Shown piece after piece: positions 196-57,601 of a stretch of DNA of 64,000 nucleotides. The stretch comes from Candidatus Roizmanbacteria bacterium RIFCSPHIGHO2_12_FULL_37_23 (GTDB lineage Bacteria > Patescibacteriota > Microgenomatia > UBA1406 > HO2-37-13b). The position numbers and the translations under genes were made by a program. Numbering within the stretch: the first letter of the stretch is position 1; each line of letters starts with the position of its first letter. The DNA lies in contig MFZX01000031.1 in the NCBI GenBank assembly GCA_001788095.1, forward strand, positions 9,736-73,735, written 5' to 3'. Below the pieces are notes generated by a model. It had not been told where the DNA came from and made no database searches. It worked only from the letters and a program-made list of their open reading frames with translations.

Positions 196-234
196 AAACA
201 ACCTTAGAGGTTGTTTAGCTTCGCAACCTTGGGT
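196..234 (-). repeat. CAACCT-hairpin repeat family (R1), variant a, reverse orientation
   Basis: aaacaaccttagaggttgttt-agcttcg-caaccttggg; reverse complement matches 28203-28250. Confidence 0.55.
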
Positions 235-750
235 AGTTTACGATTTTTTAACCTCTAGATCAAAAATAAAAAACTAAGAAAATAAAAGTCGAGAATGAGA
301 TCTCGTGTATACTATTATTATGAACATTCCCGTCTACATAGCTGTATCTGTCGTTATTATCATGGTGTGGCACTTCATGTTTAACACAAACCCAAAAGAC
401 TTTGGTATTATGCAAATGGCTGGAGTATTTGTTCTTGGCGGGGCAATCGGTTGGTTTATGAATTCACTCGAAGCAGGACTTTTAATGTCTATTATTTTAT
501 CGCTGATCTTTATTTAGAATCTATGAATAAAGGTTTCTCGTTTGTTCGCATTATAATAATCTGTTTTCTCTCTGCACTCTCATTTATAGTGGGCTTTTGG
601 ATTACACAAATGATAATACAAACTCAATCTCCGCTTCCTACACGAATAAGACCTACGCTTTATCCAACACATGCTCCATTAAATAATCTTCAATAAACCA
701 AAGTCAACTTAATAGATTCTTAATATTTTTTTAGTATAGTACCCCTGCGT

Positions 751-818
751 GGGCCTACTTGGGTAAGGCACCTGGTCCATCAAACCTGGATGCGAGGGTT
801 CAACTCCCTCTAGGTCCA
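751..818 (+). other. tRNA-like element: intact acceptor pairing (gggccta/taggtcc) and T-arm (gaggg-ttcaact-ccctc), but no foldable anticodon arm and too short (68 nt); possible degenerate tRNA or small ncRNA
   Basis: Manual folding. The T-loop TTCAACT is identical to that of the tRNA-Met at 53572. It is followed on the + strand by the intrinsic terminator at 905-929. Confidence 0.3.
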
Positions 819-904
819 CGTGAATATTGACACGTTCCTATCTATTTGATATAGTAGCAATGATGGACTGGGTGTAACCTTACCTAGGTGCATTTAGGTC
901 AAAG

Positions 905-929
905 AATCCGCCTTGTGCGGATTTTTTGT
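905..929 (+). terminator. Rho-independent terminator hairpin aatccgc-cttgt-gcggatt followed by TTTTTT; usable in both directions, also lies downstream of the ppsA stop
   Basis: 7-bp GC-containing stem, 5-nt loop, T-run read directly from sequence. Confidence 0.6.
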
Positions 930-932
930 TTC

Positions 933-6714: not shown

Positions 6715-7008
6715 TTATTCGTTATTATGAATGTATAATCGTAATTTATCCAAAATTTCGTCTGTTTTTTCTTCATCAATATAGGTAAGCAACATGGGAT
6801 ATATTTTTTCCAATTGCGGAAACTTATCAATATACTTTTTTATTTTTTCATGCATGTCATCGTCGGAGGTAAAAGGTAAAAGCGTTAAAAATTCTTTTCC
6901 CGCTTGCTTAGAAATCGGTAAAGTGATAGTTCCTTTTTTAAGTGCTTCTGCAACTGTTTTAAGAAAATCTATTTCTATACGTTTTGTCAAAACAGAAAGC
7001 TTATCCAT
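6715..7008 (-). CDS. hypothetical small protein
   Basis: 97-aa ORF in operon-like position downstream of 5759-6706. Confidence 0.3.
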   Translation of the reverse strand: MDKLSVLTKRIEIDFLKTVAEALKKGTITLPISKQAGKEFLTLLPFTSDDDMHEKIKKYIDKFPQLEKIYPMLLTYIDEEKTDEILDKLRLYIHNNE

Positions 7009-7040
7009 ACAATGATTATCATTTATCCTTCTTATAGTTT

Positions 7041-7075
7041 CAACCTCTAAGATTGTTTAGGTTCACAACCTTGGG
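7041..7075 (-). repeat. R1 repeat, variant a, reverse orientation
   Basis: caacctctaagattgtttaggttcacaaccttggg. Confidence 0.55.
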
Positions 7076-7128
7076 TATTTTAATTTAATTTTTTAATTTT
7101 TGTACCTAAAATATGTAGGAGATGTTGG

Positions 7129-7180
7129 GCCTCACTTCAACCTTCGATGTTGGTTTGTACTCCAACCTCTGTACTTGGGG
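7129..7180 (+). repeat. R1 repeat, variant b (aaccaaccttcgatgttggtttgtactccaacct)
   Basis: 34-nt core identical to copies at 28098, 39262 and near-identical at 46255. Confidence 0.6.
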
Positions 7181-7201
7181 CATTAACTTCCTATTACATG
7201 C

Positions 7202-7207
7202 TATAAT
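7202..7207 (+). promoter_or_regulatory. -10 box TATAAT 8 nt upstream of the ychF start codon (leaderless or near-leaderless transcript)
   Basis: Sequence ctataatttctcactATG. Confidence 0.35.
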
Positions 7208-7215
7208 TTCTCACT

Positions 7216-8295
7216 ATGCTTACTGCTGGGATCGTTGGTCTTCCTAACGTTGGGAAGTCCACGCTTTTTAACGCACTTTTGAAAAAGCAAGTGGCTGATG
7301 CTGCCAATTATCCTTTTTGTACCATCGACCCAAATATTGGTGTTGTAGAAGTGCCTGATGAACGGCTTCCAAAACTTGCAAAGATTGTTGAAACTGAAAA
7401 AATAGTACCGTCTGCTGTTGAGTTTTGTGATATCGCAGGACTTGTCCGCGGGGCTTCCAAAGGCGAAGGACTTGGTAATCAATTTCTGAGCCATATACGT
7501 GAAGTCGATGCGATTATTCATGTAGTAAGACTCTTCGAAGATGAAAATGTAACACATGTTTCTCAAAAATTAGATCCGAAAGATGATATTGAAACAATTG
7601 AAACAGAACTTATTCTCAAAGATCTCGAAACACTTTCACGTCAAGAGAAACCTAATAAAAAATTATCAAAAGAAGATGATATCTATTATGATGCTGTTGA
7701 AATCCTCAAAGAAAAACTGAACAAAAATATTGCAGCAAAAGAGGTGCAGCTTTCCGACATACAAAAAGAGTCTGTGAAAAAACTTAATTTGCTTACCATT
7801 AAACCCGTTCTGTATGTACTTAATCTCTCTGAGAAACAACTGATTAATTTACCTGAGATTAAAAAACTTATTTCAACTCATTTCAACGAATTTCAACCGA
7901 TTCTCACTCTCTGTGCCAAACTCGAATCAGATATTGTTGTCCTCTCCCCTGATGAGCAAAAAGAATATTTACAGCAATACAACCTTGAAGAACCTGGTCT
8001 TAATAGACTTATCAATGCAGCATATGACCTTCTTGGTCTTATTTCATTCTTAACAGCGGGGAAAAAAGAAGTTCGTGCATGGCCGATCAAGAAAGGGACC
8101 ACTGCTCAAAATGCAGCTGGTGTAATTCATACAGATTTTATACAGCATTTTATAAAAGCAGAGATAGTTCCCTATCAGCAGTTTGTTGAAGTTGGCGGCT
8201 GGATCCATGCACGCGAAAAAGGTCTGGCAAAAATGTGTGGACGAGACTACGAAATGCAGGATGGAGATGTTGTAGATTTTAAGGTTGGTGTGTAG
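7216..8295 (+). CDS. ychF: ribosome-binding ATPase YchF (Obg-family GTPase)
   Basis: GIVGLPNVGKSTLFNAL P-loop, NYPFCTIDPNIGVV, C-terminal TGS domain; 359 aa. Confidence 0.85.
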   Translation: MLTAGIVGLPNVGKSTLFNALLKKQVADAANYPFCTIDPNIGVVEVPDERLPKLAKIVETEKIVPSAVEFCDIAGLVRGASKGEGLGNQFLSHIREVDAIIHVVRLFEDENVTHVSQKLDPKDDIETIETELILKDLETLSRQEKPNKKLSKEDDIYYDAVEILKEKLNKNIAAKEVQLSDIQKESVKKLNLLTIKPVLYVLNLSEKQLINLPEIKKLISTHFNEFQPILTLCAKLESDIVVLSPDEQKEYLQQYNLEEPGLNRLINAAYDLLGLISFLTAGKKEVRAWPIKKGTTAQNAAGVIHTDFIQHFIKAEIVPYQQFVEVGGWIHAREKGLAKMCGRDYEMQDGDVVDFKVGV

Positions 8296-10483
8296 AAGCA
8301 TCAAAAACGACATGCTCTTGTCCTGCATCAGATGTTCCTGTTTCCATCCCACCGAGAAACACTCGCAATGCATCTTTGATTCTCTTTATTTGTTGGAAGT
8401 CTGCAGGATAGGGATTCTCCCATTGAAAGACTCTTCCAAGTTCTTGAACTGACTTCCCTTGTACATATCGATAATAGAGATACCTTTGTTGGTGTGCATT
8501 AAGGCTTTCTAGAAATCTGGTGAATCTAGTTGGATCATCTTGCGCAAAAGTACCTAATTCGCGAACATTCCGAGTCGCTAATTCGCCTCTCAATATTTCA
8601 ATATTTCCCCTATTTTGACCGCGGAATTCTCTAATGGATCTTGGTCTCCTCCTGTTCCTTCTTTTCTTAACTTCTCTTGGTTTTTCAAATTTATCTAATT
8701 GCATAGAACCTTTTCCTAAATACCTCTCAAGATGGGCAATGGCCCGATGCTGACGTGCTTTTGCTGCTCCGTAAGATGTTCCCATTACCCGAGCTATTTG
8801 ATCAGATCGTAAACCTCGCCATAATCTATTCCACAATAATGTTCGTTGTTCTGGCTCCAGATCTTGGAGCATTGCTAAGAATAGAGCTGGATCTTCTAAT
8901 TTTTCGCGTACTGCTGGATTGTGTGTATGTTGAAGCAAGCTGAGTCGAATATGTTCAGCGAGTATATCAGGCGGTGGCTCTGCAAATTCCACCCGCTTAG
9001 TTTTTTGAGTTGGTTCTGGCACAATTACTTCAACGGATTGATATGTGTTATAAGCAGTAACAACGCTTTGTATCGAAGACTCACCTAATGGTGTTGTGAC
9101 ATAAATACCATCCGTTATACGCATGAGTAAAGGACTATCTCCTTGGGTAAGTCTCTTATTAAGAGTCTCTCGTAATGTTTCTAATTCTAAACCTAATCTT
9201 TGAGCTGCAGCCCTACCATGATCTCTAAAAACGAATTGTCCATATCGACTTAGATATTCATTTACCACGGTTAAAATTTCTAGTTGATACTGGGGATAAC
9301 CAACATCCGCTGCAACTGTATTATCGGGATAAGGTATGGTCATATCAGCTTCCCCAGTTAGCATATCATAGAAATCTTTTGTTGGAATCATGAGCCTATA
9401 ACCACCTCGAGTATCTTCATGGACTATGCCAATTTGCTTAGCTAAATCCATTGCTCTGATAATTTGTTCTTTTGAAAAACCAGTTCCTTGATACATGTCA
9501 CGAAGTGAAACAGCTCGAACAATGTTTCTCCGCTCTTTTTCATCAGTTCGCGCAGCCAGAAGGGTTAGGCGTGCAACCATCGACGGAGAGATTGATTTTT
9601 CAGTTCCATCCACTTGTTCAAATTGGATTGTCCCACTATACGGATTAATCACACGAGATTCAGATGCGACCTCTGTTTCTGGAGTGGTTCGAACAGTTCG
9701 TGCCAAAAGAACTGGGTGGATTGTGTATTCGGTAGTCTGACCTCTTAATATTCTTTCTGCAGCAATTCCATTTCTAATCCCGTATCCAAATGCTGTCTTT
9801 TGACGCACAATTCCAAGAAGCGGTTCTTCTCCATGCGTCGCTATTTTATGCAGTATTTCTCTTACATACTCTTCTCTAAAGGGAACTTCTATATCAAGAT
9901 CGGCCATATCGTGATGTGGTAAAAAGACTTGGTGACTTTGAATGTATCGTAATATCGATGCAACAAGATCACGATGATACTCATGGATTTTATCTTGCCA
10001 TAAATCGGGCTGAGGAGGTGGAACCTTTCTTATATTTGTTCTTGAAACAAGGAGTTCTTGGAGTGTTGGTATGGGTACCGTCGGGCGATAGCCTGATGAA
10101 TATGTTCCAGTTCTCTTTTTAACAACGCCAAGTGCAGTTAGCTTATCTAAAGCATGTCTAACTTCAAAATTTGTTTGCGCACCTTGTGTCATCTCAGAAA
10201 CACGTCTTGCAGTAATCCATGGGTCAACGCCCTGATCTGTAAGAGCCGTTGCAACTCCGGTAAACAAGGCTCCAATATATCGATCAGTTACGCGCAATTG
10301 ACGCTCTTCACCTGTAAATTCGGAGTTCGCGATAATGGTCTGGGGTCCATAAGGAACTACTATTGGAACATTAACATATGCATCTCCTGGCTCAGCGGAA
10401 TCGGGTCTTAAGACGAAAAGAGAAGGTGTAGCTTCCAAACCAGGCGGGACATCTATAGTGTCTACTAATTCAGCACGACCCAT
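8279..10483 (-). CDS. large (734 aa) Arg-rich hypothetical protein with several winged-helix-like segments and two sigma-70 region-4-like HTH motifs; unknown function
   Basis: SDQIARVMGTSYGAAKARQHRAIAHLERYL (sigma70_r4-like), GKSVQELGRVF..IKRIKDALRVFL, ALDKLTALGVVKKRTG; higher GC than flanking genes; convergent 17-bp overlap with ychF. Confidence 0.5.
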   Translation of the reverse strand: MGRAELVDTIDVPPGLEATPSLFVLRPDSAEPGDAYVNVPIVVPYGPQTIIANSEFTGEERQLRVTDRYIGALFTGVATALTDQGVDPWITARRVSEMTQGAQTNFEVRHALDKLTALGVVKKRTGTYSSGYRPTVPIPTLQELLVSRTNIRKVPPPQPDLWQDKIHEYHRDLVASILRYIQSHQVFLPHHDMADLDIEVPFREEYVREILHKIATHGEEPLLGIVRQKTAFGYGIRNGIAAERILRGQTTEYTIHPVLLARTVRTTPETEVASESRVINPYSGTIQFEQVDGTEKSISPSMVARLTLLAARTDEKERRNIVRAVSLRDMYQGTGFSKEQIIRAMDLAKQIGIVHEDTRGGYRLMIPTKDFYDMLTGEADMTIPYPDNTVAADVGYPQYQLEILTVVNEYLSRYGQFVFRDHGRAAAQRLGLELETLRETLNKRLTQGDSPLLMRITDGIYVTTPLGESSIQSVVTAYNTYQSVEVIVPEPTQKTKRVEFAEPPPDILAEHIRLSLLQHTHNPAVREKLEDPALFLAMLQDLEPEQRTLLWNRLWRGLRSDQIARVMGTSYGAAKARQHRAIAHLERYLGKGSMQLDKFEKPREVKKRRNRRRPRSIREFRGQNRGNIEILRGELATRNVRELGTFAQDDPTRFTRFLESLNAHQQRYLYYRYVQGKSVQELGRVFQWENPYPADFQQIKRIKDALRVFLGGMETGTSDAGQEHVVFDASTHQP

Positions 10484-10529
10484 TGTGGACTATTATATCA
10501 CACTACTTGTTTCATTAGCCTCAACCCTG

Positions 10530-10562
10530 CCTCAAATCCCACCTCGGGAGTGGGATTTGAGG
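10530..10562. repeat. R2 hairpin repeat: cctcaaatcccac-CTCGGGA-gtgggatttgagg (13-bp stem), downstream of the tatD stop
   Basis: Perfect palindrome. Copies also at 14283, 16901, 55680 and 57517. Confidence 0.6.
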
Positions 10563-10568
10563 CAAATA

Positions 10569-12466: not shown

Positions 12467-13165
12467 ATGAAATGGAAAAGTAATATAACAAATCAGGTTC
12501 GATGGTCAGGTGATATCTCAAATAAAGAAAAAAAACAAGTAGTGGCTCAAAAAATTGCAGCACAGGTAAAAAACGGAGATATTATTGGAATAGGCTCAGG
12601 ATCAACCTCTTTCCTAGCACTCCAAGCTATAGGAGAACGGGTCCAAAAAGAAAATCTTTCGATAACTGCAATCACAACTTCATATGAGATGTTAATAACA
12701 TGCTCAGCACTCAATATTCCGACAACAACTCTTTTGCATGACCGACCAGATTGGTCTTTTGATGGTGCGGATGAAGTAGATCCAAACAATAACCTAATCA
12801 AAGGTCGCGGGGGTGCAATGTTTATTGAAAAAATTATGATTGTGAGCGCTCCAAAAACATTCATTCTTGTTGATGACACAAAGCTTGTTGAAAAGCTTGG
12901 AATAAAATTTCCTGTTCCTATTGAAATCTATCCTATGGCTATTAATGTTGTCGAAGAGAGACTTATGAAGATAGGAGCAAAAGAAATAGTGCTTAGACTT
13001 GCAAAGTCAAAAGATGGCCCAGTGATAACTGAAGGTGGAAATTTTATTCTTGATGTAAGATTTGAAAATATCGGAGATCAAACAGAGGTAGACATAAAGA
13101 AGATACCAGGAGTTATTGAATCAGGTCTATTTATAGGATATTCTGTAGAAGTCATCTCCACGTAG
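12467..13165 (+). CDS. rpiA: ribose-5-phosphate isomerase A
   Basis: GIGSGSTSFLALQAIGERV, DGADEVD..KGRGGA motifs. Confidence 0.8.
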   Translation: MKWKSNITNQVRWSGDISNKEKKQVVAQKIAAQVKNGDIIGIGSGSTSFLALQAIGERVQKENLSITAITTSYEMLITCSALNIPTTTLLHDRPDWSFDGADEVDPNNNLIKGRGGAMFIEKIMIVSAPKTFILVDDTKLVEKLGIKFPVPIEIYPMAINVVEERLMKIGAKEIVLRLAKSKDGPVITEGGNFILDVRFENIGDQTEVDIKKIPGVIESGLFIGYSVEVIST

Positions 13166-13170
13166 AATTA

Positions 13171-13196
13171 CCCAAGGTTGTTTAGATTCGTAACCT
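13171..13196 (+). repeat. R1 repeat, partial variant a, at the left edge of GC-rich island 1
   Basis: cccaaggttgtttagattcgtaacct. Confidence 0.4.
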
Positions 13197-14250: not shown

Positions 14251-14282
14251 TGAAAAGTTTATTAAAACTCCCGAAATTAGAC

Positions 14283-14313
14283 TCGAATCCCACTCCCGAG
14301 GTGGGATTTGAGG
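14283..14313. repeat. R2 hairpin repeat (opposite loop orientation) at the right edge of GC island 1
   Basis: ctcgaatcccac-TCCCGAG-gtgggatttgagg. Confidence 0.55.
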
Positions 14314-14548
14314 CAGAATTCATCCTCTATTTCCGTGACTCTATATAAATCTATCTTACGATTCCACAATGTGTTAAGGTGCTTTTTAAAAAATCCTATG
14401 AATCAATTATTCCCATGCGAAAAGGAAATAATGATTCAAAGAGTGAAACAATTATATTACTTGAGGCGAAGAATGTCAAAACTATGGGCTACAAAGTATA
14501 TACCAGTTGGAATGATTTATAATCAGTTATAATTTATTTTTAACAACG

Positions 14549-16907: not shown

Positions 16908-16927
16908 TCCCGAGGTGGGATTTGAGG
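16901..16927. repeat. R2 hairpin repeat in the divergent promoter region between the GH gene and PBP2
   Basis: ttcccac-TCCCGAG-gtgggatttgagg. Confidence 0.5.
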
Positions 16928-16961
16928 CTAAATTTTAAAAAGTTAATGTTTTTTTAATCTT

Positions 16962-28075: not shown

Positions 28076-28135
28076 CCCCGAGGTTGCGAGCGTAACCAAC
28101 CTTCGATGTTGGTTTGTACTCCAACCTCCCGGGTT
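28076..28135 (+). repeat. R1 repeat variant b inserted in the AT-rich spacer within GC island 2
   Basis: ccgaggttgcgagcgtaaccaaccttcgatgttggtttgtactccaacctcccggg. Confidence 0.6.
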
Positions 28136-28202: not shown

Positions 28203-28250
28203 TCCCAAGGTTGCGAACGTAATCAACCTCTAAGGTTGATTTGTTTTCAG
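28203..28250 (+). repeat. R1 repeat variant a (ccaaggttgcgaacgtaatcaacctctaaggttgatttg)
   Basis: Same architecture as variant b; outer stem aggttg/caacct plus inner hairpin. Confidence 0.55.
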
Positions 28251-39246: not shown

Positions 39247-39310
39247 CCTAGGTTGTGAACGTAACCAACCTTCGATGTTGGTTTGTACTCCAACCTCTGT
39301 ACCTGAGGCT
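39247..39310 (+). repeat. R1 repeat variant b immediately upstream of argS; generates the spurious N-terminal extension of the track ORF
   Basis: ctaggttgtgaacgtaaccaaccttcgatgttggtttgtactccaacctctgtacc. Confidence 0.6.
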
Positions 39311-45383: not shown

Positions 45384-46992
45384 AAAGATCTTTATAAAAT
45401 TTTGACATTTGCGGATACCGTTCCGGTGCAGTTAAAATACTCCCATATCCTCTATTACTTGAAAAAATATAGTAGTCAGCTTGTTTTAAAAGACTATCAA
45501 TACGATTCCATTTATCCGGTGTATCAGGATCAAATACTGGTAATTGATCTATTTTATACAGCAAAGGTGAATCGTAATTTATTGGCAAAGGTAAAGCATC
45601 GTCCCAATGCTCTGTCACAATATGAGAGCCAGCGGGAATATTCTTATATATCCATTGCGAAGCTGTTACTCTGCTGTGAGGACGAGTATAAATTGCCATA
45701 AAACCTAGTGGCCAAATAGATACGAAAATGAGCAATATTGATATAGCTAGTTTTTGATATTTCTTTACTTTCTCTATGATAGTGACGATACCAAAAGCAC
45801 CTATAATCGCAAAAAATGGATATAAAGGATAAAAATATCTCATTCCCATAACAAATTGCGTACTTTGATAAAGAAAAAAACCAATAATCCAGAGAAAAAT
45901 AACATAAAATTCTTTTTTTCTATGTTGCAAAAAATCTCTAACACCGATAAGAACGATTAAAAAATAAGGAATTCCAAGGCCAAAGACTGCTAAATTTATA
46001 AGAGGAAATGCGATTGATTGCTTATGGACCCACTGGACGCCAGGCGGGAACCATACGTTAGGATTCGAATAGGTGTTTAATTGTTTAATATTTTCTATAA
46101 ACTGCGGATTTGGATGGATATCAAAAAAATTAGCATTCGTAAAAAGGCGTGGATCTGCTAAACGTAGAGCGATATAGAAAGTTATTAAAAACAAACCAAT
46201 ATGAATAACCAATGTCATTGGATGTATTGCTGGTGAGTCGATGTTGGAGTAATAACCAACCTTCGATGTTGGTTTGTACTTCAACCTACCGGATCTACGT
46301 CTTAACAAGATTGGGAATTTTTCGTTTATCATTGCTAAGACAATCAAAACAATGATGAGAAAGGTTGGTAGGATGGCCGAGAGCTTTGAAGCAAATGCTA
46401 GACCAAGTATTGTTCCACATAGAGCAATATCAATCGTACGTTTATCGTAAAAATACCGAAGCGAAAAGTATATTGACGCTAATGCAAAAAAAACGAGAAA
46501 TGAGTCTGTTGTAAAAAAATGTGCATTTTGAATAGGTACTACTGCAATCGCATATAAGAATCCTGCAAAATATTTTATTCGATTATCAATCTTATACTTT
46601 TGTTCCCATAACTGCATCATCTTTATGACAAAAATAAGGCTTAAAACGTCAAAAATTGCGCTTAATGCACGGCCATATATGGCCGTTTCGTTATACGTAT
46701 CTACGTTGGAAAAAACAACGAATAACTTATTGAGAGTGAGAGGAAATGTTCCATATACGAAAAAACTGAAGCCAATATTATAAGGGTTTAATGTTGATTG
46801 TGTAGGATTCATGTATTGAGTAATTGATTCAGGTATTTTCATTGCATTTGAAACCATAGTGAGGAAACGCTCATCTGGATGAAGATGTTGGTTTTGATCC
46901 CAATTTAGGCCATATAGTCTAAGTATAAGAGCGAGTAAAACAATGGTTATAAAAAGAAACTTCTGCATTGTAGGACTAAGTAAAAATTTCAA
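45250..46992 (-). CDS. GT-C family 39-like (ArnT / protein O-mannosyltransferase-like) membrane glycosyltransferase; contains an in-frame R1 repeat
   Basis: LHPDERF (DE motif) near the N-terminus, many TM helices. The repeat-encoded segment is LKYKPTSKVGYY. Confidence 0.55.
   Translation of the reverse strand: MKFLLSPTMQKFLFITIVLLALILRLYGLNWDQNQHLHPDERFLTMVSNAMKIPESITQYMNPTQSTLNPYNIGFSFFVYGTFPLTLNKLFVVFSNVDTYNETAIYGRALSAIFDVLSLIFVIKMMQLWEQKYKIDNRIKYFAGFLYAIAVVPIQNAHFFTTDSFLVFFALASIYFSLRYFYDKRTIDIALCGTILGLAFASKLSAILPTFLIIVLIVLAMINEKFPILLRRRSGRLKYKPTSKVGYYSNIDSPAIHPMTLVIHIGLFLITFYIALRLADPRLFTNANFFDIHPNPQFIENIKQLNTYSNPNVWFPPGVQWVHKQSIAFPLINLAVFGLGIPYFLIVLIGVRDFLQHRKKEFYVIFLWIIGFFLYQSTQFVMGMRYFYPLYPFFAIIGAFGIVTIIEKVKKYQKLAISILLIFVSIWPLGFMAIYTRPHSRVTASQWIYKNIPAGSHIVTEHWDDALPLPINYDSPLLYKIDQLPVFDPDTPDKWNRIDSLLKQADYYIFSSNRGYGSILTAPERYPQMSKFYKDLFAGRGDFMQVQEFTSYPYFSINDQWADESFTVYDHPKVTIFKKL
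46235..46300 (+). repeat. R1 repeat variant b lying in-frame inside the GT39-like CDS (RPE-like situation)
   Basis: aaccaaccttcgatgttggtttgtacTtcaacct; translated on the minus strand as YKPTSKVGY. The copy at 39262 gives the same peptide in the spurious ORF 39075-39293. Confidence 0.6.
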
Positions 46993-47755
46993 AAGAAATA
47001 TTCTCTTTTAGGACTCCAAACCCTTCAACAAATGCTCTGAGTGAATCAACTGTTTGTCTCCCTCCGCAAATATAATATTCAAAATCATTGGGATTTTTAC
47101 CTTGGAGCAAAGTCTCAATATGCGCATTAACTCTACCTTGTACATAATGGTTTCCATCAAGCCCTTCCAAACTTTGCTCTCTTGATAAGCAAAGTTTGAA
47201 GTGAAAATTTTTGTGTTCTTCAGCAAGTTTCTTAAATATATCGAACAAATACACGTCTTGTCGATATCGTAGACCGAAAAACAAATAGAGGTTTGGTGAA
47301 CCCGCGAGGTCGTTAAGTCGGTGCATTGGCTCAACGAGAGGATTTGTTTGGTCAGTAACCATCTGAGCGACTTGTTGACTTAGTCGATGCTGTATCATGG
47401 CTTTTATCGGTGCTATACCTGTTCCCGTTCCTAAAAATATTTTGTCTTTGGGTGTGTCTCGGAGTATGAAAACGCCTGCTGGACCTCGAAATTCTGCTTT
47501 TTGACCTACTTGAAGCTGGGACAAATACAGCGAAGCTATTCCTTTTGGAATATATTCAATAATAATCTCAAAGGACTTATTATGTGAAGGAGGTGAACTT
47601 ATAGAATACTGCCTATAAAATTCGCCAATTTTAAGTAAAAGGTATTGACCAGCTTTGATATCAAGCTGTCCTTCATCGAGCGTGAACTCGAATCTCCAGA
47701 CATCTCCCACGAGCTGTTCTTTAGTTGTTAAAGTTGTTGCATAGGTAGTTAGCAT
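46976..47755 (-). CDS. ferredoxin-NADP+ reductase-family flavoprotein (FAD/NAD(P)-binding oxidoreductase)
   Basis: RQYSISS (RxYS FAD site), LGTGTGIAP, YICGG. Confidence 0.6.
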   Translation of the reverse strand: MLTTYATTLTTKEQLVGDVWRFEFTLDEGQLDIKAGQYLLLKIGEFYRQYSISSPPSHNKSFEIIIEYIPKGIASLYLSQLQVGQKAEFRGPAGVFILRDTPKDKIFLGTGTGIAPIKAMIQHRLSQQVAQMVTDQTNPLVEPMHRLNDLAGSPNLYLFFGLRYRQDVYLFDIFKKLAEEHKNFHFKLCLSREQSLEGLDGNHYVQGRVNAHIETLLQGKNPNDFEYYICGGRQTVDSLRAFVEGFGVLKENISFEIFT

Positions 47756-47757: not shown

Positions 47758-50157
47758 TTACAGCTTAGCTCGTTGTACCGTCTCTGCTTCAACAAGCTCT
47801 TTAGGCTTACCGTATTTTAGACGAGATAACTGAATAATAGCTTTTGCTATCTTATCATTTGCCTTGTCTTTGAAATTCGTCATGTCTTTTGTCATATCAA
47901 CTGAAAATGGTGGAACAGGTTCATTACTTACAATGGTTTTCATATATGCGTGATATCGATCAATATTAATAAGATCTGTTTCTGAAAAAACTGGCTGGAA
48001 TTCACGTGCAATATATGAAGCGTCTGTCACTCCAACACGAAAACAACACAAGGTTCCCACGTTACCAAACACTGCATTTTTAACTTCTTCTTCCATCTGT
48101 CCAATAAATTGATTCGCAACAGTAAGGCCTAATCGATATTTTCGTGCTTCAGAAAGTATGGTTGCAAAATCTGGTGTTGCAAAATTCTGGAACTCATCTA
48201 CATATAGGAAAAAATCTTTACGTTCATCTTCCGGAATTTCTTGTCTTGACATCGCAGATATTAAAATTTTAGGGATAAGTACCAGTCCAAGAAAGCTTGA
48301 GTTTTCTTCTCCAAGCTTACCCTTACTTAGATTTATAAGAAGAATTTTCTTCTCATCCATAACCTTCCGGAAATCAAATGCTGACTTAGATTGACCAATA
48401 ATATTACGAATAGTAGTATTTGTTACAAAGCGTCCAAATTTTGAGACTATATAATCAAGCGTTTCTGATTTATGGAAATCGCTTGTTTGGGCTATCTGAT
48501 CAGTCCAAAATCGTCGTACAATCGGATCTTTTACTTTAGGAAGTACTTCCTGCACATATTTTGTATCTGTTAAGATACGAACAATTTCGATAAAAGTAGC
48601 CCCCTCTTCTGCCATAACAGTCAACATTGCATTTCGAACAGTATGTTCAAACCGCGGACCTACGATACCAGTGCGCTGTGGATCGTATAATTTATACATA
48701 AGATTAATTATTCCTGTTGTCATGAAATGTTTTTCTTCTTCAGAATTAGCTTCAAGAAGATTGAGTCCCATTGGTCTATCGGTATCAGAGGGATCAAAAT
48801 AAATGACATCTTCGGCTCGCTCAGGAGGAATATAGCGTAACAACCCTTCAACCAAATCTCCGTGAGGATCTATAACACACACGCCGTGGCCTGCCTCAAT
48901 ATCCTGTACTGCCATATCATGGAGAAGTACTGATTTTCCAACACCTGTTTTTCCAATAATATAGACGTGTCGGCGTCTGTCTTCAAGCAACACGTGTACA
49001 GGTCTCCTAACGCCTCGATAATGACCGTGACCAATAAATGTTCCACCTTCTTGAGGTACTTCGGAAGAAACAGGCGCAGTTTTAGCCTTAACCCATACGA
49101 TAAAGGGTGTTTCAACGGTTTTATTTGGGAAATGAAAAAGTGTAGCTAACTCCTCAGAAGACAAAACTGAGACTGTTTTCATAAATGGAAACTCAAATAC
49201 AGGGAAAAATTTATAGATAAAATTAACCATAAACCCGTATGAAAAAAAGGCTCGAGCGCCTGTGAAACTATTGAGATCTGACGCGAATTGAGAAAATGCT
49301 GTTTTGAGATTTTTGAGGTGGAGATCAGCCATTTCTTTTGTTTGCGCTGATGTTACAAGACGAATCGCTACATCAAAACCGGGCTTGGTCACCTTTTCAT
49401 CAATCTTCTCAAGAACCTTTTGATCAACTCTAAACGTAGCTTCTTCAGGCGAAGCCTCCTTCTTTTTGGTTGAGGATATATATGATCTCCCTTCATCTCT
49501 ATGTTTGGATTTTGTTGACCGTATAAGGATCTGTATTATGCTTCCCTCATCATCTCCTAATTTAGAAAATGGTGATGAAATCAATGAAAGCGAATCTGTT
49601 GGGAGTTCTTTATAGGTTTTTATTGGATTAAAGGCTGAGTTTTTCTGTTTTAAAGCAACAAAAGCAACCTTACCATTTTCATGAAAAATATTGGGCTCTT
49701 CAACCAGACTAATATCGCACGAGGGGTAGAATGCATAAATTTGTTTTTCAACGAGGTCTTTAAGCCGTGCTGGAGCTGAAACATAAAACCCAATTTTTCC
49801 TTTAGTTCCGATTATTTCAAAAGCGAGAGCGTCATCAACTTCAAAAAATGACCAGAGCCCACTGTTTCCGAGCGAGGCAAATGAAGAAAACATTTGTTCA
49901 GCTGCATCAATTTTTATCTCGTTATCTTTAGGCAATCGAACTTCGAGTGTGATCATCTCGAGTGAAATCTTCTCCCTCTTTCGCAAACGAATGAAAATAA
50001 CCAATACATATATACCAATTGCTACTATCGCAAGCGTGATAATAACAGCAAAGAAGATTATGAGCGATACAATCAGCCCATTGAGAATTTCAGTACCAAC
50101 AGACTCCATAGTAGCATTATACAGAATTGTTGAATTCCTTGTTATAATATTCCCCAT
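47758..50157 (-). CDS. VirD4/TraG/TraD-like coupling-protein ATPase (FtsK/HerA superfamily), N-terminal TM
   Basis: YIIGKTGVGKS Walker A, DPHGD, YVDEFQNF Walker B, membrane anchor; 799 aa. Confidence 0.5.
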   Translation of the reverse strand: MGNIITRNSTILYNATMESVGTEILNGLIVSLIIFFAVIITLAIVAIGIYVLVIFIRLRKREKISLEMITLEVRLPKDNEIKIDAAEQMFSSFASLGNSGLWSFFEVDDALAFEIIGTKGKIGFYVSAPARLKDLVEKQIYAFYPSCDISLVEEPNIFHENGKVAFVALKQKNSAFNPIKTYKELPTDSLSLISSPFSKLGDDEGSIIQILIRSTKSKHRDEGRSYISSTKKKEASPEEATFRVDQKVLEKIDEKVTKPGFDVAIRLVTSAQTKEMADLHLKNLKTAFSQFASDLNSFTGARAFFSYGFMVNFIYKFFPVFEFPFMKTVSVLSSEELATLFHFPNKTVETPFIVWVKAKTAPVSSEVPQEGGTFIGHGHYRGVRRPVHVLLEDRRRHVYIIGKTGVGKSVLLHDMAVQDIEAGHGVCVIDPHGDLVEGLLRYIPPERAEDVIYFDPSDTDRPMGLNLLEANSEEEKHFMTTGIINLMYKLYDPQRTGIVGPRFEHTVRNAMLTVMAEEGATFIEIVRILTDTKYVQEVLPKVKDPIVRRFWTDQIAQTSDFHKSETLDYIVSKFGRFVTNTTIRNIIGQSKSAFDFRKVMDEKKILLINLSKGKLGEENSSFLGLVLIPKILISAMSRQEIPEDERKDFFLYVDEFQNFATPDFATILSEARKYRLGLTVANQFIGQMEEEVKNAVFGNVGTLCCFRVGVTDASYIAREFQPVFSETDLINIDRYHAYMKTIVSNEPVPPFSVDMTKDMTNFKDKANDKIAKAIIQLSRLKYGKPKELVEAETVQRAKL
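50138..50143 (+). promoter_or_regulatory. TATAAT -10 box 12 nt upstream of the ATG at 50156
   Basis: gttataatattccccATG. Confidence 0.3.
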
Positions 50158-50606: not shown

Positions 50607-51029
50607 ATGATTCTTAAAATCTTTACAGACGGCGGATCCAAGGGAAATCCCGGTCCTTCTGCGATTGGCATCGTAGGTTACACAGAGGAGGGAAAAGAGA
50701 TTCTACGTCATAGGGAAGATATTGGCAGAGCTACAAATAATGAAGCTGAATACACAGCAGTAATAAAAGCTCTCGAGCTCATCCATTTTCAAATTTCAAA
50801 TTTCAAATTTCAAATTAACAGAATCGACCTCTACTCTGATTCGCGACTTATGGTAAACCAACTTAATGGTTTGTTTAAAATTAAAAAGGCCCATATTCGT
50901 AATTTTGTATTTAAAGTACGGATTTTAGAGTCAGAATTACGCCTTCCGGTATATTATCATCATATTAGACGGGAAGAAAACAAGGTCGCAGATGCCTTAG
51001 TGAATGGAAATTTGAAAGATGAGATTTGA
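50607..51029 (+). CDS. RNase H-like protein (RNase HI fold); contains an in-frame TTTCAAA x4 repeat
   Basis: FTDGGSKGNPGPSAIG, EYTAVIKALE, DSRLMVNQL. Repeat at 50786-50817 encodes HFQISNFKFQIN. Confidence 0.65.
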   Translation: MILKIFTDGGSKGNPGPSAIGIVGYTEEGKEILRHREDIGRATNNEAEYTAVIKALELIHFQISNFKFQINRIDLYSDSRLMVNQLNGLFKIKKAHIRNFVFKVRILESELRLPVYYHHIRREENKVADALVNGNLKDEI

Positions 51030-51053
51030 AAATGGACGGACATTTTCAAATTT

Positions 51054-55630: not shown

Positions 55631-55679
55631 ATAAAACTATTATACTATAGGATTATCTATATTGCAAACCTCATATTAG

Positions 55680-55712
55680 CCTCAAATCCCACCTCGGGAG
55701 TGGGATTTGAGC
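55680..55712. repeat. R2 hairpin repeat; a partial second half-site lies at 55746-55760
   Basis: cctcaaatcccac-CTCGGGA-gtgggatttgagC. Confidence 0.55.
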
Positions 55713-55785
55713 GTGATTTTAAGTAATTTTATTTAATTTTAATTTGAGTGGGATTTGAGGTCGGGCTGATGTCAAACTTATGAGG

Positions 55786-56013
55786 TTACTTCGTTTTCTT
55801 CCCACTAAGCGCTTCTTTGAAGTCTTTCCACCACTTAGTAAGCTGTTTATTTGTTTCTTTACCAGCAGACATACTAAAACCTAAATCCAAAGCCCCTCCT
55901 GCAACAAGCATGGGGAGGCCAAATATAGCCCCAACAGCAATAACACCAATAGTAATTTTGTCAAACACTTTCCTCGTCTTTTCCAGTACATTATCCTCGG
56001 TTTCCTTAGCCAT
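55786..56013 (-). CDS. small membrane protein
   Basis: 75 aa, one TM. Confidence 0.3.
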   Translation of the reverse strand: MAKETEDNVLEKTRKVFDKITIGVIAVGAIFGLPMLVAGGALDLGFSMSAGKETNKQLTKWWKDFKEALSGKKTK

Positions 56014-56056
56014 GACAGTTATATTATAATCGAGAATAGAAATTCAGGTACCTAAA

Positions 56057-57505
56057 ATGGATATATTTTCTTTACACAAACTAACCCTCACTACGAAAAC
56101 CCTCTCTTTAATAACAATCGTCTTTATCTTCCTCGCGTTCTGGTATAAAACTTCCATATTTCTTGATCCTGACTTTGGCTGGGAGATACGTATGGGACAA
56201 TATATTTTAAAAAACGGTATTCCATACACCGATCCGCTCTCCTACACTATGCCAAGCTACCCCATAATCGCACATTACTGGCTTAGTAGCAGCCTTATTA
56301 CACGAATTTATCCTGTCTTCGGATATGTCGGTCTTGCTGGTATTGTTTCTTGCTTTTCTTTACTTGCCATGCTTATTCTTGTCCCCCGAAAAGGATTTTC
56401 ACTTAGCCTCATTCCTCTCTTACTAGCTACTTCTGGACTTTTTTCATATGCAAGCGTACGACCACATTTTTTTACCTGGCTTTTCCTCGCTTTCATATTT
56501 CGAATTACTACCGATAAAATGTTATGGAAAAAATACTGTTGGTATATCCCTCTTCTTTTTATACTTTGGACTAATATACATGGGGGCTTTGCAGCGGGCC
56601 TTTTCTTAATCTTAATTAAGCTCATCGTTGATGCATGGCATGAGAAAAAAATAAATAAACAAATCGCGCTTATCAGCACCCTTTCAATCGTTGCTACATT
56701 TATTAATCCTTATGGAATATATGTGTGGAGAGAAATATTTATCACCATCTTCGATCCTGGAACACGGATAGGAATAAACGAATGGCAACCATTTATTTCT
56801 CGATTATCGCTCATCCACGCGCCTGTATTAGTGTTACCGCTTGTACTTTTTGCTCGATACTTCCGCTCATTCACACTTTTAGAAAAATGTTTTTTCGTGA
56901 TACTTCTCATTAATGGTTTTTCAAGCAGTAAGATGTACCCCATGTGGCTTCTCTACAGCATATATTTCTCAACAAAAGGACTTCTGTTTCTAACATACGA
57001 AGTAAAAAACAATAAAATTGCATCGCAGAAACTTAATATTATTCTATCTTGCCTCCTGATTATTGCAGGCACATATACTTCCACGTATGGTTTTCGGGTT
57101 TATACGATTTATAAACAACTATCTGAAGAGAGATTTTATCCCAAAAAAGCGGTTGAATTTATAAAATTACATCCTACTCAAGGCCATATTTTTAGCTCAT
57201 TTTCGTGGGGAGGATACGTGTTATGGAAACTGCCCGAGCATAAAACGTTTGTAGATGGAAGAATGCCACATTGGGAAAATCAAAATGCTTCAAATTCTGA
57301 AAGTAAAAAGGCAATAGATGATTTCCAAAAAATTCTTAAAACTGAACTCGCATTTGATAATATAGCTTCAAAATATACAATTGATACACTGCTTCTTCCG
57401 AAAGAATACCGGAAGAAATTCAAAAAGTTCTTCCTAGCTCTTAAAAAAGACGATTGGAAGACTATCTACAAAGACGATATATCAGTCATCTTAAGGAAAG
57501 ATTAA
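56057..57505 (+). CDS. polytopic membrane protein (GT-C-like glycosyltransferase candidate)
   Basis: 482 aa, more than 10 TM helices, directly upstream of the GT2 DPM-synthase-like gene. Confidence 0.4.
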   Translation: MDIFSLHKLTLTTKTLSLITIVFIFLAFWYKTSIFLDPDFGWEIRMGQYILKNGIPYTDPLSYTMPSYPIIAHYWLSSSLITRIYPVFGYVGLAGIVSCFSLLAMLILVPRKGFSLSLIPLLLATSGLFSYASVRPHFFTWLFLAFIFRITTDKMLWKKYCWYIPLLFILWTNIHGGFAAGLFLILIKLIVDAWHEKKINKQIALISTLSIVATFINPYGIYVWREIFITIFDPGTRIGINEWQPFISRLSLIHAPVLVLPLVLFARYFRSFTLLEKCFFVILLINGFSSSKMYPMWLLYSIYFSTKGLLFLTYEVKNNKIASQKLNIILSCLLIIAGTYTSTYGFRVYTIYKQLSEERFYPKKAVEFIKLHPTQGHIFSSFSWGGYVLWKLPEHKTFVDGRMPHWENQNASNSESKKAIDDFQKILKTELAFDNIASKYTIDTLLLPKEYRKKFKKFFLALKKDDWKTIYKDDISVILRKD

Positions 57506-57516
57506 CCTCAACTTAG

Positions 57517-57549
57517 CCTCAAATCCCACCTCGGGAGTGGGATTTGAGG
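57517..57549. repeat. R2 hairpin repeat after the membrane protein gene
   Basis: cctcaaatcccac-CTCGGGA-gtgggatttgagg. Confidence 0.55.
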
Positions 57550-57601
57550 CTAGAGCATGGGCATGCAACCTTAGAGGCTGACAATATGCTACAATATCCG
57601 T

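What the first reader, a model, noticed from the sequence alone, without database searches (positions are those of the whole stretch)
196..57580. CAACCT-hairpin repeat family (R1) with two loop variants, at least 9 copies in 64 kb
The copies share one architecture: aggttg-cgaRcgta-[aNcaacc-loop-ggttgNtt]-tgtactc-caacct. The inner hairpin loop is either ttcgat (variant b) or tctaa/ttagag (variant a). They occur in both orientations, mostly just upstream of genes (ychF, argS, rpe-side), and twice within GC island 2. The density of about 1 per 7 kb is high for a small genome. This could be a MITE family or a transcribed small-RNA or REP-like family.
Basis: seen in the sequence. Interest (0 to 1): 0.55.

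Follow-up and report, generated by a model that had tools for sequence, protein, structure and literature searches.

The report
REP-like palindromic repeats in a Roizmanbacteria genome
The "CAACCT hairpin" copies are a real family of short, hairpin-forming repeats scattered between genes of a tiny-genome groundwater bacterium (Candidatus Roizmanbacteria), and they most resemble the REP elements that related genomes keep together with a dedicated tyrosine transposase, although no such transposase was found for this family.

Summary
The repeat family is real. The window holds nine copies or fragments, against about 0 to 0.4 expected by chance, and a tenth lies 1.2 kb beyond the window.

There are two types, not one architecture:
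- Type a (35-40 nt): CCCA-AGGTT-GCG-AACCT-AAA-CAACCT-(CTA|TAG)-AGGTTG.
- Type b (50-60 nt): the same 5' half, or another arm, plus AACCAAC-CTTCGAT-GTTGGTT-TGTACTC-CAACCT.

The genome is Candidatus Roizmanbacteria RIFCSPLOWO2_02_FULL_37_19 (CPR). Near-identical a-copies occur in at least four other metagenome contigs with unrelated flanks, and two diverged copies occur in a Gottesmanbacteria MAG. Rfam has no match.

Syntenic relatives (ArgRS about 51-53% identical) have no R1. They carry RAYT-like Y1 transposase genes, each flanked by inverted copies of its own hairpin-plus-tail repeat. Those repeats occupy the same two intergenic slots as window copies c6 and c4/c5. Copy c7 coincides with 21 extra in-frame residues in a membrane glycosyltransferase.

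Best reading (about 0.6): a REP-like, non-autonomous palindromic element family, probably mobilised as single-stranded DNA by a Y1/HUH transposase. That cognate enzyme was not found in any sequence I could reach. This is a new member of a known kind, of moderate interest.

The parts
194..233 (-). c1, type a: CCCAAGGTTGCGAAGCTAAACAACCTCTAAGGTTGTTTGG. It lies between a 65-aa gene (+, 320-517) and a 50-aa gene (-, start at 56).
   Evidence: 60.1 bits; gene calls
7037..7075 (-). c2, type a with loop TAG and one G-T wobble (CAATCT/AGGTTG). It ends 29 nt upstream of the 97-aa gene 6715-7008(-). Its terminal TTG forms a -35-like TTGAAA, 17 nt from GATAAT.
   Evidence: (63 bits)
7122..7181 (+). c3, type b. 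The core 7138-7168 is identical to c4 and c6; the 5' arm is divergent (GAGATGTTGG); the 3' extension is CTGTACTTGGGGC. It ends 48 nt upstream of ychF (7216).
28078..28133 (+). c4, full type b with an extended outer stem (CCGAGGTTG...CAACCTCCCGG). It lies in the AT-rich gap of the GC island and is preceded by a 14-nt tandem repeat.
   Evidence: (DNA fold -14 kcal/mol, z -4.26)
28205..28244 (+). c5, type a, 127 nt after c4 and 25 nt upstream of a TGATATAAT box.
   Evidence: (63.9 bits)
39247..39309 (+). c6, full type b, in the 111-nt spacer between gene 38424-39227 and argS (ATG at 39339). The -10 box TGATACAAT lies 26 nt downstream of the element.
46240..46287 (+). c7, type b with a perfect 9-bp outer stem. 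It lies inside and antisense to the PMT-like glycosyltransferase ORF 45250-46992(-). It coincides with 21 extra in-frame residues relative to three orthologs.
   Evidence: (z -3.67)
13163..13191 (.). c8, a fragment: CCCA-AGGTTG-TTTAGATTCG-TAACCT. This is the 5' half with its 10-nt interior inverted. It lies directly after the rpiA stop codon.
   Evidence: D6; 20.9 bits, E 2e-4
57563..57581 (.). c9, a solo hairpin: CAACCTTAGAGGCTG. It lies between the terminator-like hairpin 57516-57552 and the TACAAT box of the glycosyltransferase gene at 57602.

Best explanation
R1 is a family of short, non-autonomous palindromic repeats of the REP type (repetitive extragenic palindromes) in Microgenomates (CPR) genomes.

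Proposed mechanism:
- One strand folds as single-stranded DNA into one or two 5-7-bp hairpins. In type a these are AGGTT-GCG-AACCT and CAACCT-NNN-AGGTTG. In type b it is a nested hairpin closed by AGGTTG/CAACCT.
- A HUH/Y1 tyrosine transposase of the RAYT / IS200-IS605 kind, encoded elsewhere in the genome or since lost, recognises the hairpin plus its unpaired 5' CCCA and A/T-rich flank.
- The enzyme cuts and re-inserts the element into A/T-rich intergenic DNA without making a target-site duplication.
- Hairpin loops and interiors flip by intrastrand template switching between the short inverted repeats.
- Inserted copies persist where they do no harm, and some may be co-opted, for example by supplying a -35-like TTG.

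Shown here:
- The family exists and has this hairpin anatomy.
- It is dispersed, mostly intergenic, and present in several genomes with unrelated flanks.
- It is absent from syntenic relatives.
- Those relatives have transposase-flanking hairpin repeats in the same slots.
- One copy coincides with an in-frame insertion in a gene.

Inferred: single-stranded DNA transposition by a Y1 enzyme, the role of the 5' flank, and any co-option.
For: 1. The family is real and far above chance.

2. The top strand folds better than shuffles as single-stranded DNA. Type a has z -2.9 to -3.2 in three of the four copies folded (the c2 sequence reaches only z -1.0), c4 has z -4.3 and c7 has z -3.7. Stem cells are 95-100% paired across 11 copies.

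3. The 35-nt a core is about 90-100% identical in other metagenome contigs whose flanks show no similarity to the window (L027/L048, L037, L043, L056/L060, L059). Two diverged copies occur in a Gottesmanbacteria MAG.

4. The copies sit in all kinds of intergenic space, so no single transcript position fits:
   - divergent: c1, c2/c3 and the copy at L086:8246-8292
   - tandem: c6, L027, L037
   - convergent: L060
   - overlapping a stop codon in reverse orientation: L043

5. Syntenic relatives (L076-L080, ArgRS 51-53% identical) contain no R1 by covariance-model search. The argS spacer is 47-52 nt in them and 111 nt in the window.

6. Those relatives, and other members of the same protein clade, carry a Y1_Tnp gene of 178-195 aa. 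Its only NCBIfam hit is REP-associated tyrosine transposase (E 1e-9 to 1e-14, below the curated cutoff). Six of the seven loci examined are flanked by inverted copies of their own hairpin-plus-tail repeat; at L085 I saw no flanking repeat. Further copies lie upstream of argS and upstream of the promoter of the GC-rich locus, which are the slots of c6 and c4/c5.

7. R1's first module, A-AGGTT-GCG-AACCT-AAA, has the same design as those repeats, for example A-AGCCC-GTG-GGCTT-AAAAA-tail.

8. c7 coincides with 21 extra residues in a loop of a PMT-like protein relative to three orthologs.

9. Loop CTA and its reverse complement TAG both occur within the window genome and within contig Ga0209343_10001290. 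c8 has the 10-nt interior inverted. Such flips are expected of hairpin DNA.

10. There is no consistent target-site duplication, as expected for Y1 transposition (established knowledge of IS200/IS605).
Against: - No Y1_Tnp or other transposase gene is present in the window, in the 20 kb flanking it, or in any R1-bearing locus held (tblastn with 122 Y1 proteins).
- None of the eight transposase loci examined is flanked by R1.
- The slot that holds the transposase gene in three relatives is empty in the window: genes 46976-47755 and 47758-50157 abut.
- R1 carries no GTAG or CGTC tag. Its second module is itself a hairpin, unlike the GGTCGTGTC / GGATCGCGCC tails of the relatives' repeats.
- Hairpin 1 is broken in four of the five window copies that carry the 5' half (c1, c4, c5, c6).
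- Three of about eight occupied spacers are divergent promoter regions, which is unusual for REPs. REPs are reported mainly downstream of ORFs (PMC3733652).
- In tandem spacers, 6 of 7 copies point the same way as the genes. Four a-copies place their terminal TTG 17-18 nt from a -10-like hexamer (c1, c2, L037, L022). A promoter-linked role therefore cannot be excluded.
- Only about 84 kb of the source genome was available, so genome-wide copy number is unknown.
- No presence/absence polymorphism between strains was seen; all assemblies of this species are 99-100% identical.
Confidence: 0.6

Rival explanations
1. R1 is a promoter-proximal cis-regulatory DNA element. It would be an array of AGGTT(G)/(C)AACCT half-sites bound as double-stranded DNA by a lineage-specific regulator or nucleoid protein, or an insulator or -35 donor placed just upstream of the extended -10 promoters (TGnTAYAAT) of leaderless genes.
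For: - Most copies lie 4-53 nt upstream of a -10 box that sits 3-12 nt before the start codon.
- In tandem spacers, 6 of 7 copies are co-oriented with the genes.
- The terminal TTG of c1, c2, L037 and L022 copy 1 lies 17-18 nt from a -10-like hexamer.
- In the second Gottesmanbacteria copy, all three half-sites change together: AGGTG / CCACCT / AGGTGG.
- The core is conserved across genomes while the flanks are not.
Against: - The distance to the -10 box varies tenfold.
- One copy lies between convergent genes (L060), one is reversed and overlaps a stop codon (L043), and one is inside an ORF (c7).
- The adjacent genes (ychF, argS, glycosyltransferases, small ORFs) form no obvious regulon.
- The orthologous argS and GC-island spacers of relatives carry different, transposase-linked repeats rather than R1.
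- The orientation bias is not significant (6 of 7, one-sided p about 0.06), and copies in divergent spacers carry no information on it.
Confidence: 0.17
2. R1 acts as RNA. It would be a structured element transcribed as the 3' end of the upstream gene (stabiliser or terminator-like) or as a small RNA started from the A/T-rich TAAAAT-like flank just 5' of CCCA.
For: - The one-sided stem changes that keep pairing are G-T(U) wobbles on the canonical strand only: CAATCT in c2 and L022, and AATCT in L022.
- Six of eight a-copies have a -10-like A/T hexamer ending 0-2 nt before CCCA.
- In tandem spacers the element usually follows the upstream stop codon by 4-25 nt in the sense orientation.
- The c5 hairpin followed by TGTTTTC is flagged as terminator-like.
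Against: - There is no Rfam match, even at E<=1.
- No pair shows a change on both sides within the main alignment.
- No U-tract follows most copies.
- Copies in divergent spacers have no upstream transcript.
- The flanking hexamers lack the TGn extension seen at real promoters of this genome.
- Wobble-only changes equally fit strand-specific single-stranded DNA recognition.
Confidence: 0.13
3. R1 is a decaying relic. It would be a REP family whose transposase was deleted from this lineage, so the copies are no longer mobile and only drift or are homogenised by gene conversion.
For: - The transposase slot of the relatives is empty in the window.
- Hairpin 1 is degraded in four of the five window copies that carry the 5' half, but intact in the other genomes and in the copy at L086:8246.
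- Loss of REPtrons by deletion is documented in E. coli strains (PMC3733652).
Against: Three b cores are identical over 31 nt and c4 equals c6 over 37 nt, which argues for recent copying or conversion. The rest of the genome was not searched.
Confidence: 0.08

Closest known systems
REP elements and REPtrons / REPIN-RAYT systems (Proteobacteria; Nunvar 2010, Bertels and Rainey 2011, Di Nocera 2013 = PMC3733652, PMC5581495)
   Same: - The repeats are 20-40-nt imperfect palindromes, dispersed mostly between genes, in both orientations and sometimes in pairs.
- Occasional copies lie inside genes.
- Families are species- or clade-specific.
- The closest syntenic relatives have the canonical arrangement: a single Y1 (RAYT-like) gene flanked by inverted copies of the repeat that is also dispersed in the genome.
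   Different: - R1 has no GTAG or CGTC tag; the unpaired 5' motif is CCCA.
- It has two hairpin modules and alternative AGGTTG/CAACCT pairings.
- No cognate RAYT was found.
- The inverted pair c2/c3 is not self-complementary, so it is not a REPIN.
- Copies are frequent in divergent promoter regions.
- The host is a roughly 1-Mb CPR genome. Two full-text searches found no description of REP/RAYT systems in that group, and one paper checked (PMC6006769) does not mention it.
TIRtrons / TIRYT repeats and CGTC REPs (Di Nocera 2013, PMC3733652)
   Same: - They are untagged or differently tagged palindromic repeat families of moderate abundance.
- CGTC REPs have no dedicated transposase, as appears to be the case for R1.
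- TIRYT genes are flanked by repeats that can overlap the 3' end of the gene, as seen in the relatives.
   Different: The sequences are unrelated, and R1 was not seen flanking any gene.
IS200/IS605-derived miniature elements (PATEs) and IS608-type single-stranded DNA transposition
   Same: - They have subterminal hairpins and no target-site duplication.
- They insert next to a short conserved sequence. R1 copies are preceded by a conserved A/T-rich (T)AAAT(A).
- Hairpin recognition is strand-specific.
   Different: R1 is only 35-60 nt and has no distinct left and right ends. No TnpA or TnpB gene is nearby. The target-site rule is inferred from about 8 flanks only.
Rickettsia palindromic elements (RPE) and Neisseria Correia elements
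   Same: They are small palindromic repeats in reduced or compact genomes. RPEs insert in-frame into protein-coding genes, as c7 appears to. Correia elements can donate promoter elements.
   Different: Those elements are 100-150 nt with defined terminal inverted repeats, and Correia elements make a TA duplication. Their sequences and hosts are unrelated.

Membership tests
REP (repetitive extragenic palindrome, general sense) | Short unit of about 20-40 bp | tested here: met
   Type a is 35-40 nt. Type b is 50-60 nt, somewhat long.
REP (repetitive extragenic palindrome, general sense) | Imperfect palindrome able to form a stem-loop | tested here: met
   Single-stranded DNA folds reach z -2.6 to -4.3 for the best copies; the c2 and c3 sequences do not beat shuffles (z -1.0 and +0.4). 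Stem cells are 95-100% paired.
REP (repetitive extragenic palindrome, general sense) | Many dispersed copies per genome | tested here: inconclusive
   There are 10 copies or fragments in about 84 kb. The rest of the genome could not be fetched.
REP (repetitive extragenic palindrome, general sense) | Extragenic location, mainly downstream of ORFs in tandem or convergent spacers | tested here: inconclusive
   Nine of 10 copies are extragenic. However, 3 of about 8 occupied spacers are divergent promoter regions.
GTAG- or CGTC-tagged REP superfamilies (PMC3733652) | Unpaired GTAG or CGTC motif at one end of the palindrome | tested here: not met
   The conserved unpaired end is CCCA (TGGG on the other strand). 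GTAG follows the element only in L027 and L037.
REPtron / REPIN-RAYT system | A RAYT (Y1_Tnp) gene flanked by inverted copies of the same repeat | tested here: not met
   There is no Y1_Tnp in the window, its 20-kb flanks, or any R1-bearing locus. Eight Y1 loci were inspected and none carries R1. A genome-wide test was not possible.
REPtron / REPIN-RAYT system | REPIN: two inverted REPs that fold into one long hairpin | tested here: not met
   c2(-) and c3(+) are head-to-head, 46 nt apart, but carry the same-sense CAACCT blocks and are not complementary. c4 and c5 are direct repeats.
MITE (classical) | Terminal inverted repeats plus a target-site duplication of fixed length | tested here: not met
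   The outer inverted repeat is only 6-10 nt. Only c4 has a flanking direct repeat (TTCTAAT), and no other copy does.
IS200/IS605-derived miniature element | Insertion 3' of a fixed short target sequence, with no duplication | tested here: inconclusive
   The 5' flank is A/T-rich: (T)AAAT(A) in 6 of 8 a-copies. No duplication is seen. The sample is small.
Any Rfam RNA family | Covariance-model match | tested here: not met
   Only a tRNA reaches gathering score. Nothing overlaps R1 even at E<=1.
Intrinsic terminator | GC-rich stem followed by a T-run | tested here: not met
   Only c5 is flagged, weakly (TGTTTTC tail). Other copies have no T-run.
Rickettsia palindromic element-like in-frame insert | Element inserted in-frame in a functional ORF, adding a peptide segment | tested here: inconclusive
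   c7 encodes GRLKYKPTSKVGYYSNI within 21 extra residues relative to 3 orthologs of 47-49% identity. The loop is poorly conserved, so the alignment is suggestive only.

The most novel reading that the evidence does not exclude
R1 is an orphan palindromic element that no longer depends on, or never depended on, a RAYT. Selection keeps it in several Microgenomates lineages as a promoter-proximal device. That device could be a binding array of three co-varying AGGTTG/CAACCT half-sites for a lineage-specific protein, or an insulator and -35 donor for leaderless genes. In that case CPR genomes would recycle REP-like hairpins as a general part of their minimal promoter architecture.
Probability: 0.15. 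Interest if true: 0.6.

Novelty: new member of a known kind. Interest (0 to 1): 0.36.

Why it matters
CPR / Patescibacteria genomes are about 1 Mb, densely packed and usually described as streamlined. A repeat family at roughly one copy per 8 kb shows that the REP/RAYT type of intragenomic replicator also lives in these genomes. So do the canonical transposase-plus-flanking-repeat units found in sister genomes, with different repeat families occupying the same intergenic slots.

If confirmed, three things follow:
- The known host range of REP-like systems is extended.
- There is a natural series for studying how repeat and transposase specificities co-diverge: at least six different hairpin-plus-tail repeats, each paired with its own transposase.
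- Such repeats become flagged as a likely cause of contig breaks and of small in-frame insertions in CPR MAGs.

The practical value is modest. The repeats are useful strain or lineage markers, and annotators should expect hairpin repeats upstream of leaderless promoters.

Tried and rejected
- **Rfam.** Scans at gathering threshold and at E<=1 matched nothing at R1. Three syntenic loci of relatives (L076-L078) and six genome-scan loci also gave nothing relevant.
- **Species-representative genomes.** The scan with AGGTTGYGARNNTAANCAAYCT gave 25 single hits. All look like chance or coding sequence except the Gottesmanbacteria contig.
- **Viral contigs.** There were two chance coding hits for type a and none for type b, so there is no sign of phage carriage.
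- **Search for the cognate transposase.**
  - tblastn with 122 Y1 proteins against the window and all loci was negative.
Five of the six have their own flanking repeat and none has R1; P0137 (L085) shows no flanking repeat.
  - I guessed that P0136 (C-terminus ...SKVTTL) was R1-linked. That guess was wrong.
  - Asking for organism names of Y1 proteins returned no names.
- **Orthology between R1-bearing loci and the window.** tblastx found none, so site conservation across R1 genomes could not be tested.
- **Strain polymorphism.** All assemblies of this species are 99-100% identical at R1 sites.
- **Orientation bias.** An apparent '12 of 13 co-oriented with the downstream gene' was rejected as partly tautological. 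Copies in divergent or convergent spacers carry no information, and the informative count is 6 of 7.
- **Hexamer enrichment outside the elements.** AGGTTG and CAACCT are not notably enriched elsewhere in the window.
- **tRNA-derived origin.** The TTCGA in the b loop suggested one, but neither ARAGORN nor Rfam supports it.
Full report

Yes. Three pattern searches put the repeats far above chance:
- The 5' motif AGGTTGCGARCGTA (up to 2 mismatches) occurs 5 times against 0.36 expected.
- The 31-nt b core CAACCTTCGATGTTGGTTTGTACTCCAACCT occurs 4 times against 0.00 expected. Three copies are exact and one has a single mismatch.
- The hairpin CAAYCT-N3-AGGYTG occurs at four loci against 0.03 expected matches.

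Reading every copy in one orientation gives nine members:
- c1 194-233(-)
- c2 7037-7075(-)
- c3 7122-7168(+)
- c4 28078-28127(+)
- c5 28205-28244(+)
- c6 39247-39296(+)
- c7 46240-46287(+)
- c8 13163-13191 (fragment)
- c9 57563-57581 (fragment)

A tenth copy lies about 1.2 kb beyond the right end of the window (L086:8246-8292).

So is the single shared architecture, as the next section shows.

**2. Anatomy**

Type a (c1, c2, c5, and the copies in other genomes) has the consensus CCCA-AGGTT-GCG-AACCT-AAA-CAACCT-(CTA or TAG)-AGGTTG (alignment A2).
- It contains four AGGTT/AACCT half-sites.
- The strand can therefore form two small hairpins, or alternatively pair the first AGGTTG with the central CAACCT.

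Type b (c3, c4, c6, c7) keeps the central CAACCT but continues as AACCAAC-CTTCGAT-GTTGGTT-TGTACTC-CAACCT.
- In c4 and c6 the structure is closed by the a-type 5' half.
- In c7 it is closed by a perfectly complementary arm (GTTGGAGTA/TACTTCAAC).
- In c3 it is closed by yet another arm.
- Type b was found only in this genome.

Two further points on structure:
- There are no compensatory changes within the main alignment. The stems are simply conserved, and the few pair-preserving changes are G-T wobbles on the canonical strand.
- The 3-nt loop occurs as CTA and as its reverse complement TAG. Both forms occur within this genome and within contig Ga0209343_10001290. c8 has the 10-nt interior inverted. 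Three coordinated substitutions are implausible. Inversion through the flanking inverted repeats is the economical explanation.

**3. Genome and surroundings**

The window is 100% identical to contigs of Candidatus Roizmanbacteria bacterium RIFCSPLOWO2_02_FULL_37_19 (GCA_001787915.1, MFZE01000049.1) and to several ENA and JGI assemblies.

Genes have extended -10 boxes (TGnTAYAAT) 3-12 nt before the start codon, which implies leaderless or near-leaderless mRNAs. R1 copies lie upstream of these boxes at distances of 4 to 53 nt.

The copies occupy every kind of spacer:
- divergent: c1, c2/c3 and the L086 copy
- tandem: c6, c9 and c4/c5
- the end of rpiA: c8
- in other genomes, convergent (L060) and reversed while overlapping a stop codon (L043)

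c7 lies inside a PMT-like glycosyltransferase ORF.

**4. Distribution elsewhere**

- A scan of 185,579 species-representative genomes gave only chance singles plus one Gottesmanbacteria contig. The covariance model finds two copies there (51.8 and 27.9 bits).
- In the second of those copies all three half-sites have changed together: AGGTG / CCACCT / AGGTGG.
- The metagenome scan recovered the source genome. It also recovered a-type copies, 93-95% identical over 40-43 nt in the three loci that gave a blastn hit, in contigs with unrelated flanks: L027/L048, L037, L043, L056/L060 and L059.
- L043 also shares the window's second hairpin family, so these contigs probably come from related organisms.
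- Viral contigs hold nothing relevant.
- Rfam has no match.

**5. The key comparison: syntenic relatives**

The closest ArgRS homologs are only 51-54% identical. Their contigs (L076-L080) are nonetheless syntenic with window positions 25-50 kb. Four observations follow.

(i) They contain no R1.

(ii) Between the FAD/NAD-binding gene and the DUF87 gene they carry a Y1_Tnp gene of about 195 aa that the window lacks.
- Its only NCBIfam hit is 'REP-associated tyrosine transposase', below the curated cutoff.
- JGI names one member RayT.

(iii) That gene is flanked by inverted copies of a hairpin-plus-tail repeat, for example TAAGCCCGTGGCTTAAAAAGGTCGTGTCT. The same holds for four more loci of this protein clade, each with its own repeat:
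- AAGACCAGGTCTAATCTACACCTGGGCG
- TAGGACCAGGTCCTGTCAGGATCGCGCCC
- TAAGACCTGGTCTTTTTAGGATCGCGCC
- CGTACCCTAACAGGGTCGTT

At a fifth locus of the clade (L085) I saw no flanking repeat. The repeat often overlaps the last codons of the gene.

(iv) Extra copies of those repeats sit in the argS upstream spacer and just upstream of the promoter of the GC-rich locus between the dockerin-like gene and dprA. These are exactly the slots of c6 and c4/c5.

So this clade runs canonical REPtron-like systems, and R1 occupies the positions that their repeats occupy. R1's first module (A-AGGTT-GCG-AACCT-AAA) has the same build as those repeats.

**6. Signs of insertion**

- The argS spacer is 111 nt in the window and 47-52 nt in the relatives.
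- c7 encodes GRLKYKPTSKVGYYSNI inside 21 extra residues of a poorly conserved loop, relative to three orthologs. The reading frame stays open.
- There is no consistent target-site duplication. Only c4 is flanked by a direct repeat, TTCTAAT.
- The 5' flank of a-copies is a conserved A/T-rich (T)AAAT(A). This would fit the target or cleavage-site rule of Y1 transposases, but that link is an inference.

**7. Most likely mechanism (confidence about 0.6)**

R1 is a REP-like non-autonomous element copied as single-stranded DNA by a Y1/HUH transposase.

*Shown:* the family, its hairpins, its dispersal, its lineage specificity, positional equivalence with transposase-linked repeats in relatives, and an apparent in-frame insertion.

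*Inferred:* the enzyme, single-stranded DNA transposition, the role of the flank, and loop flipping by template switching.

*Main weakness:* no cognate transposase.
- None is present in the window, in 20 kb of flanks, or in any R1-bearing locus.
- None of the eight Y1 loci inspected is flanked by R1.
- The family may be served in trans from elsewhere in the genome. Alternatively it may be an orphan after loss of its REPtron, as documented for E. coli strains (PMC3733652). Four of the five window copies with the 5' half have a broken first hairpin, which fits decay. The identical b cores argue for recent copying or conversion.

**8. Rival explanations**

*A promoter-linked double-stranded DNA element (0.17).*
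- For: proximity to promoters; -35-like TTG spacing in four copies; co-varying half-sites.
- Against: variable spacing; copies in convergent, reversed and intragenic positions; replacement by other repeats at the orthologous sites.

*An RNA element (0.13).*
- For: wobble-only changes and a -10-like flank.
- Against: no Rfam match, no covariation, and no upstream transcript in divergent spacers.

The apparent orientation bias shrinks to 6 of 7 informative cases (p about 0.06) once the tautological divergent and convergent cases are removed.

**9. Comparison with known systems**

R1 meets the general REP definition: short, palindromic, repeated and extragenic. It differs in several ways:
- It lacks the GTAG and CGTC tags.
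- It is not arranged as REPINs.
- It has no demonstrated RAYT.
- It is not a classical MITE.

It works most like REP/TIRtron repeats and IS200/IS605-derived miniature elements. The c7 case recalls Rickettsia palindromic elements.

Full-text searches found no paper linking REP, RAYT or REPIN with CPR or Patescibacteria.

**10. Verdict**

This is a real, lineage-specific REP-like repeat family in a CPR genome. It is a new member of a known kind, with an unresolved mobilising enzyme. Interest is moderate (0.36).

Noticed in passing
window 10527-10567, 14276-14316, 16902-16934, 55677-55724, 57505-57552; also L043:9627-9701: There is a second repeat family: a 14-bp-stem hairpin, GCCTCAAATCCCAC-CTCGGGA-GTGGGATTTGAGGC. 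It lies at gene ends. Its 7-nt loop occurs in both orientations (CTCGGGA and TCCCGAG), the same flip-flop seen in R1. It is shared with the R1-bearing contig Ga0209542_10000238.
   Followed up: partly
window 38377-38413, 40702-40778, 41020-41074, 50782-50831, 50998-51036, 58547-58594, 61024-61074: There is a third family of degenerate runs of the heptamer-like unit TCAAATC/TCTCAAA. They often occur as inverted pairs a few hundred nt apart, around gene boundaries.
   Followed up: no
window about 26300-29500 (GC 48-54% against 38% for the window): The GC-rich island has no Rfam match. It contains a 209-aa ORF with a signal-peptide-like start (26673-27302) and an acidic D/E/G-rich ORF on a 9-27-nt periodic repeat (28690-28956). 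Relatives have a shorter GC-rich (53-59%) spacer at the same place, between the dockerin-like gene and dprA. That spacer has P/D/E-rich small ORFs and a conserved hairpin, GAGAGCCCTTCC...GGAAGGGCTCTC. So at least part of the island is a conserved locus and not an assembly chimera.
   Followed up: partly
L064:1058-1807 versus window 28511; L040 versus window 27124-29776; L032:1753-2080 versus window 6095: Other assemblies of the same organism break or differ at these points. L064 leaves the island at 28511 and joins unrelated AT-rich coding DNA. L040 lacks 30 nt (one gap somewhere in window 27124-29776; its position was not located). L032 joins GC-rich foreign-looking DNA at 6095. The causes could be repeat-induced misassembly or real variants.
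   Followed up: partly
window 28010-28075: Four tandem copies of a 14-nt unit (TTCATTAATTGCTT-like) lie directly upstream of c4 (D8).
   Followed up: no
window 7190-7216, 28268-28276, 39317-39341, 57590-57604; L076-L078 about 9985-10003: Extended -10 boxes (TGnTAYAAT) sit only 3-12 nt before ATG start codons and are conserved in relatives. This suggests widespread leaderless mRNAs in this lineage.
   Followed up: partly
L076:18297-18967, L077:18291-18969, L078:17352-18034, L081:9930-10620, L083:8790-9460, L092:1000-1680, L098:8560-9260: Related Microgenomates genomes carry RAYT-like Y1_Tnp genes. Each is flanked by inverted copies of its own hairpin-plus-tail repeat. The downstream repeat supplies the last codons of the protein (for example ...KTRSF*). 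The gene is inverted in L077 relative to L076 and L078 at the same locus. One genome (samples ERZ27275114 and ERZ27275376) has two such gene-repeat pairs.
   Followed up: yes
window 751-821: There is a weak sub-threshold tmRNA hit (21.4 bits against a gathering score of 47, E 1e-4), and a Plastid-ycf2 hit on the opposite strand. Both lie in the spacer downstream of the PEP synthase/PPDK gene.
   Followed up: no
window 8279-10483 (-): A 734-aa protein has only a faint or weak sigma-70 region 4 match and no other domain. It is conserved in all assemblies of the species.
   Followed up: no
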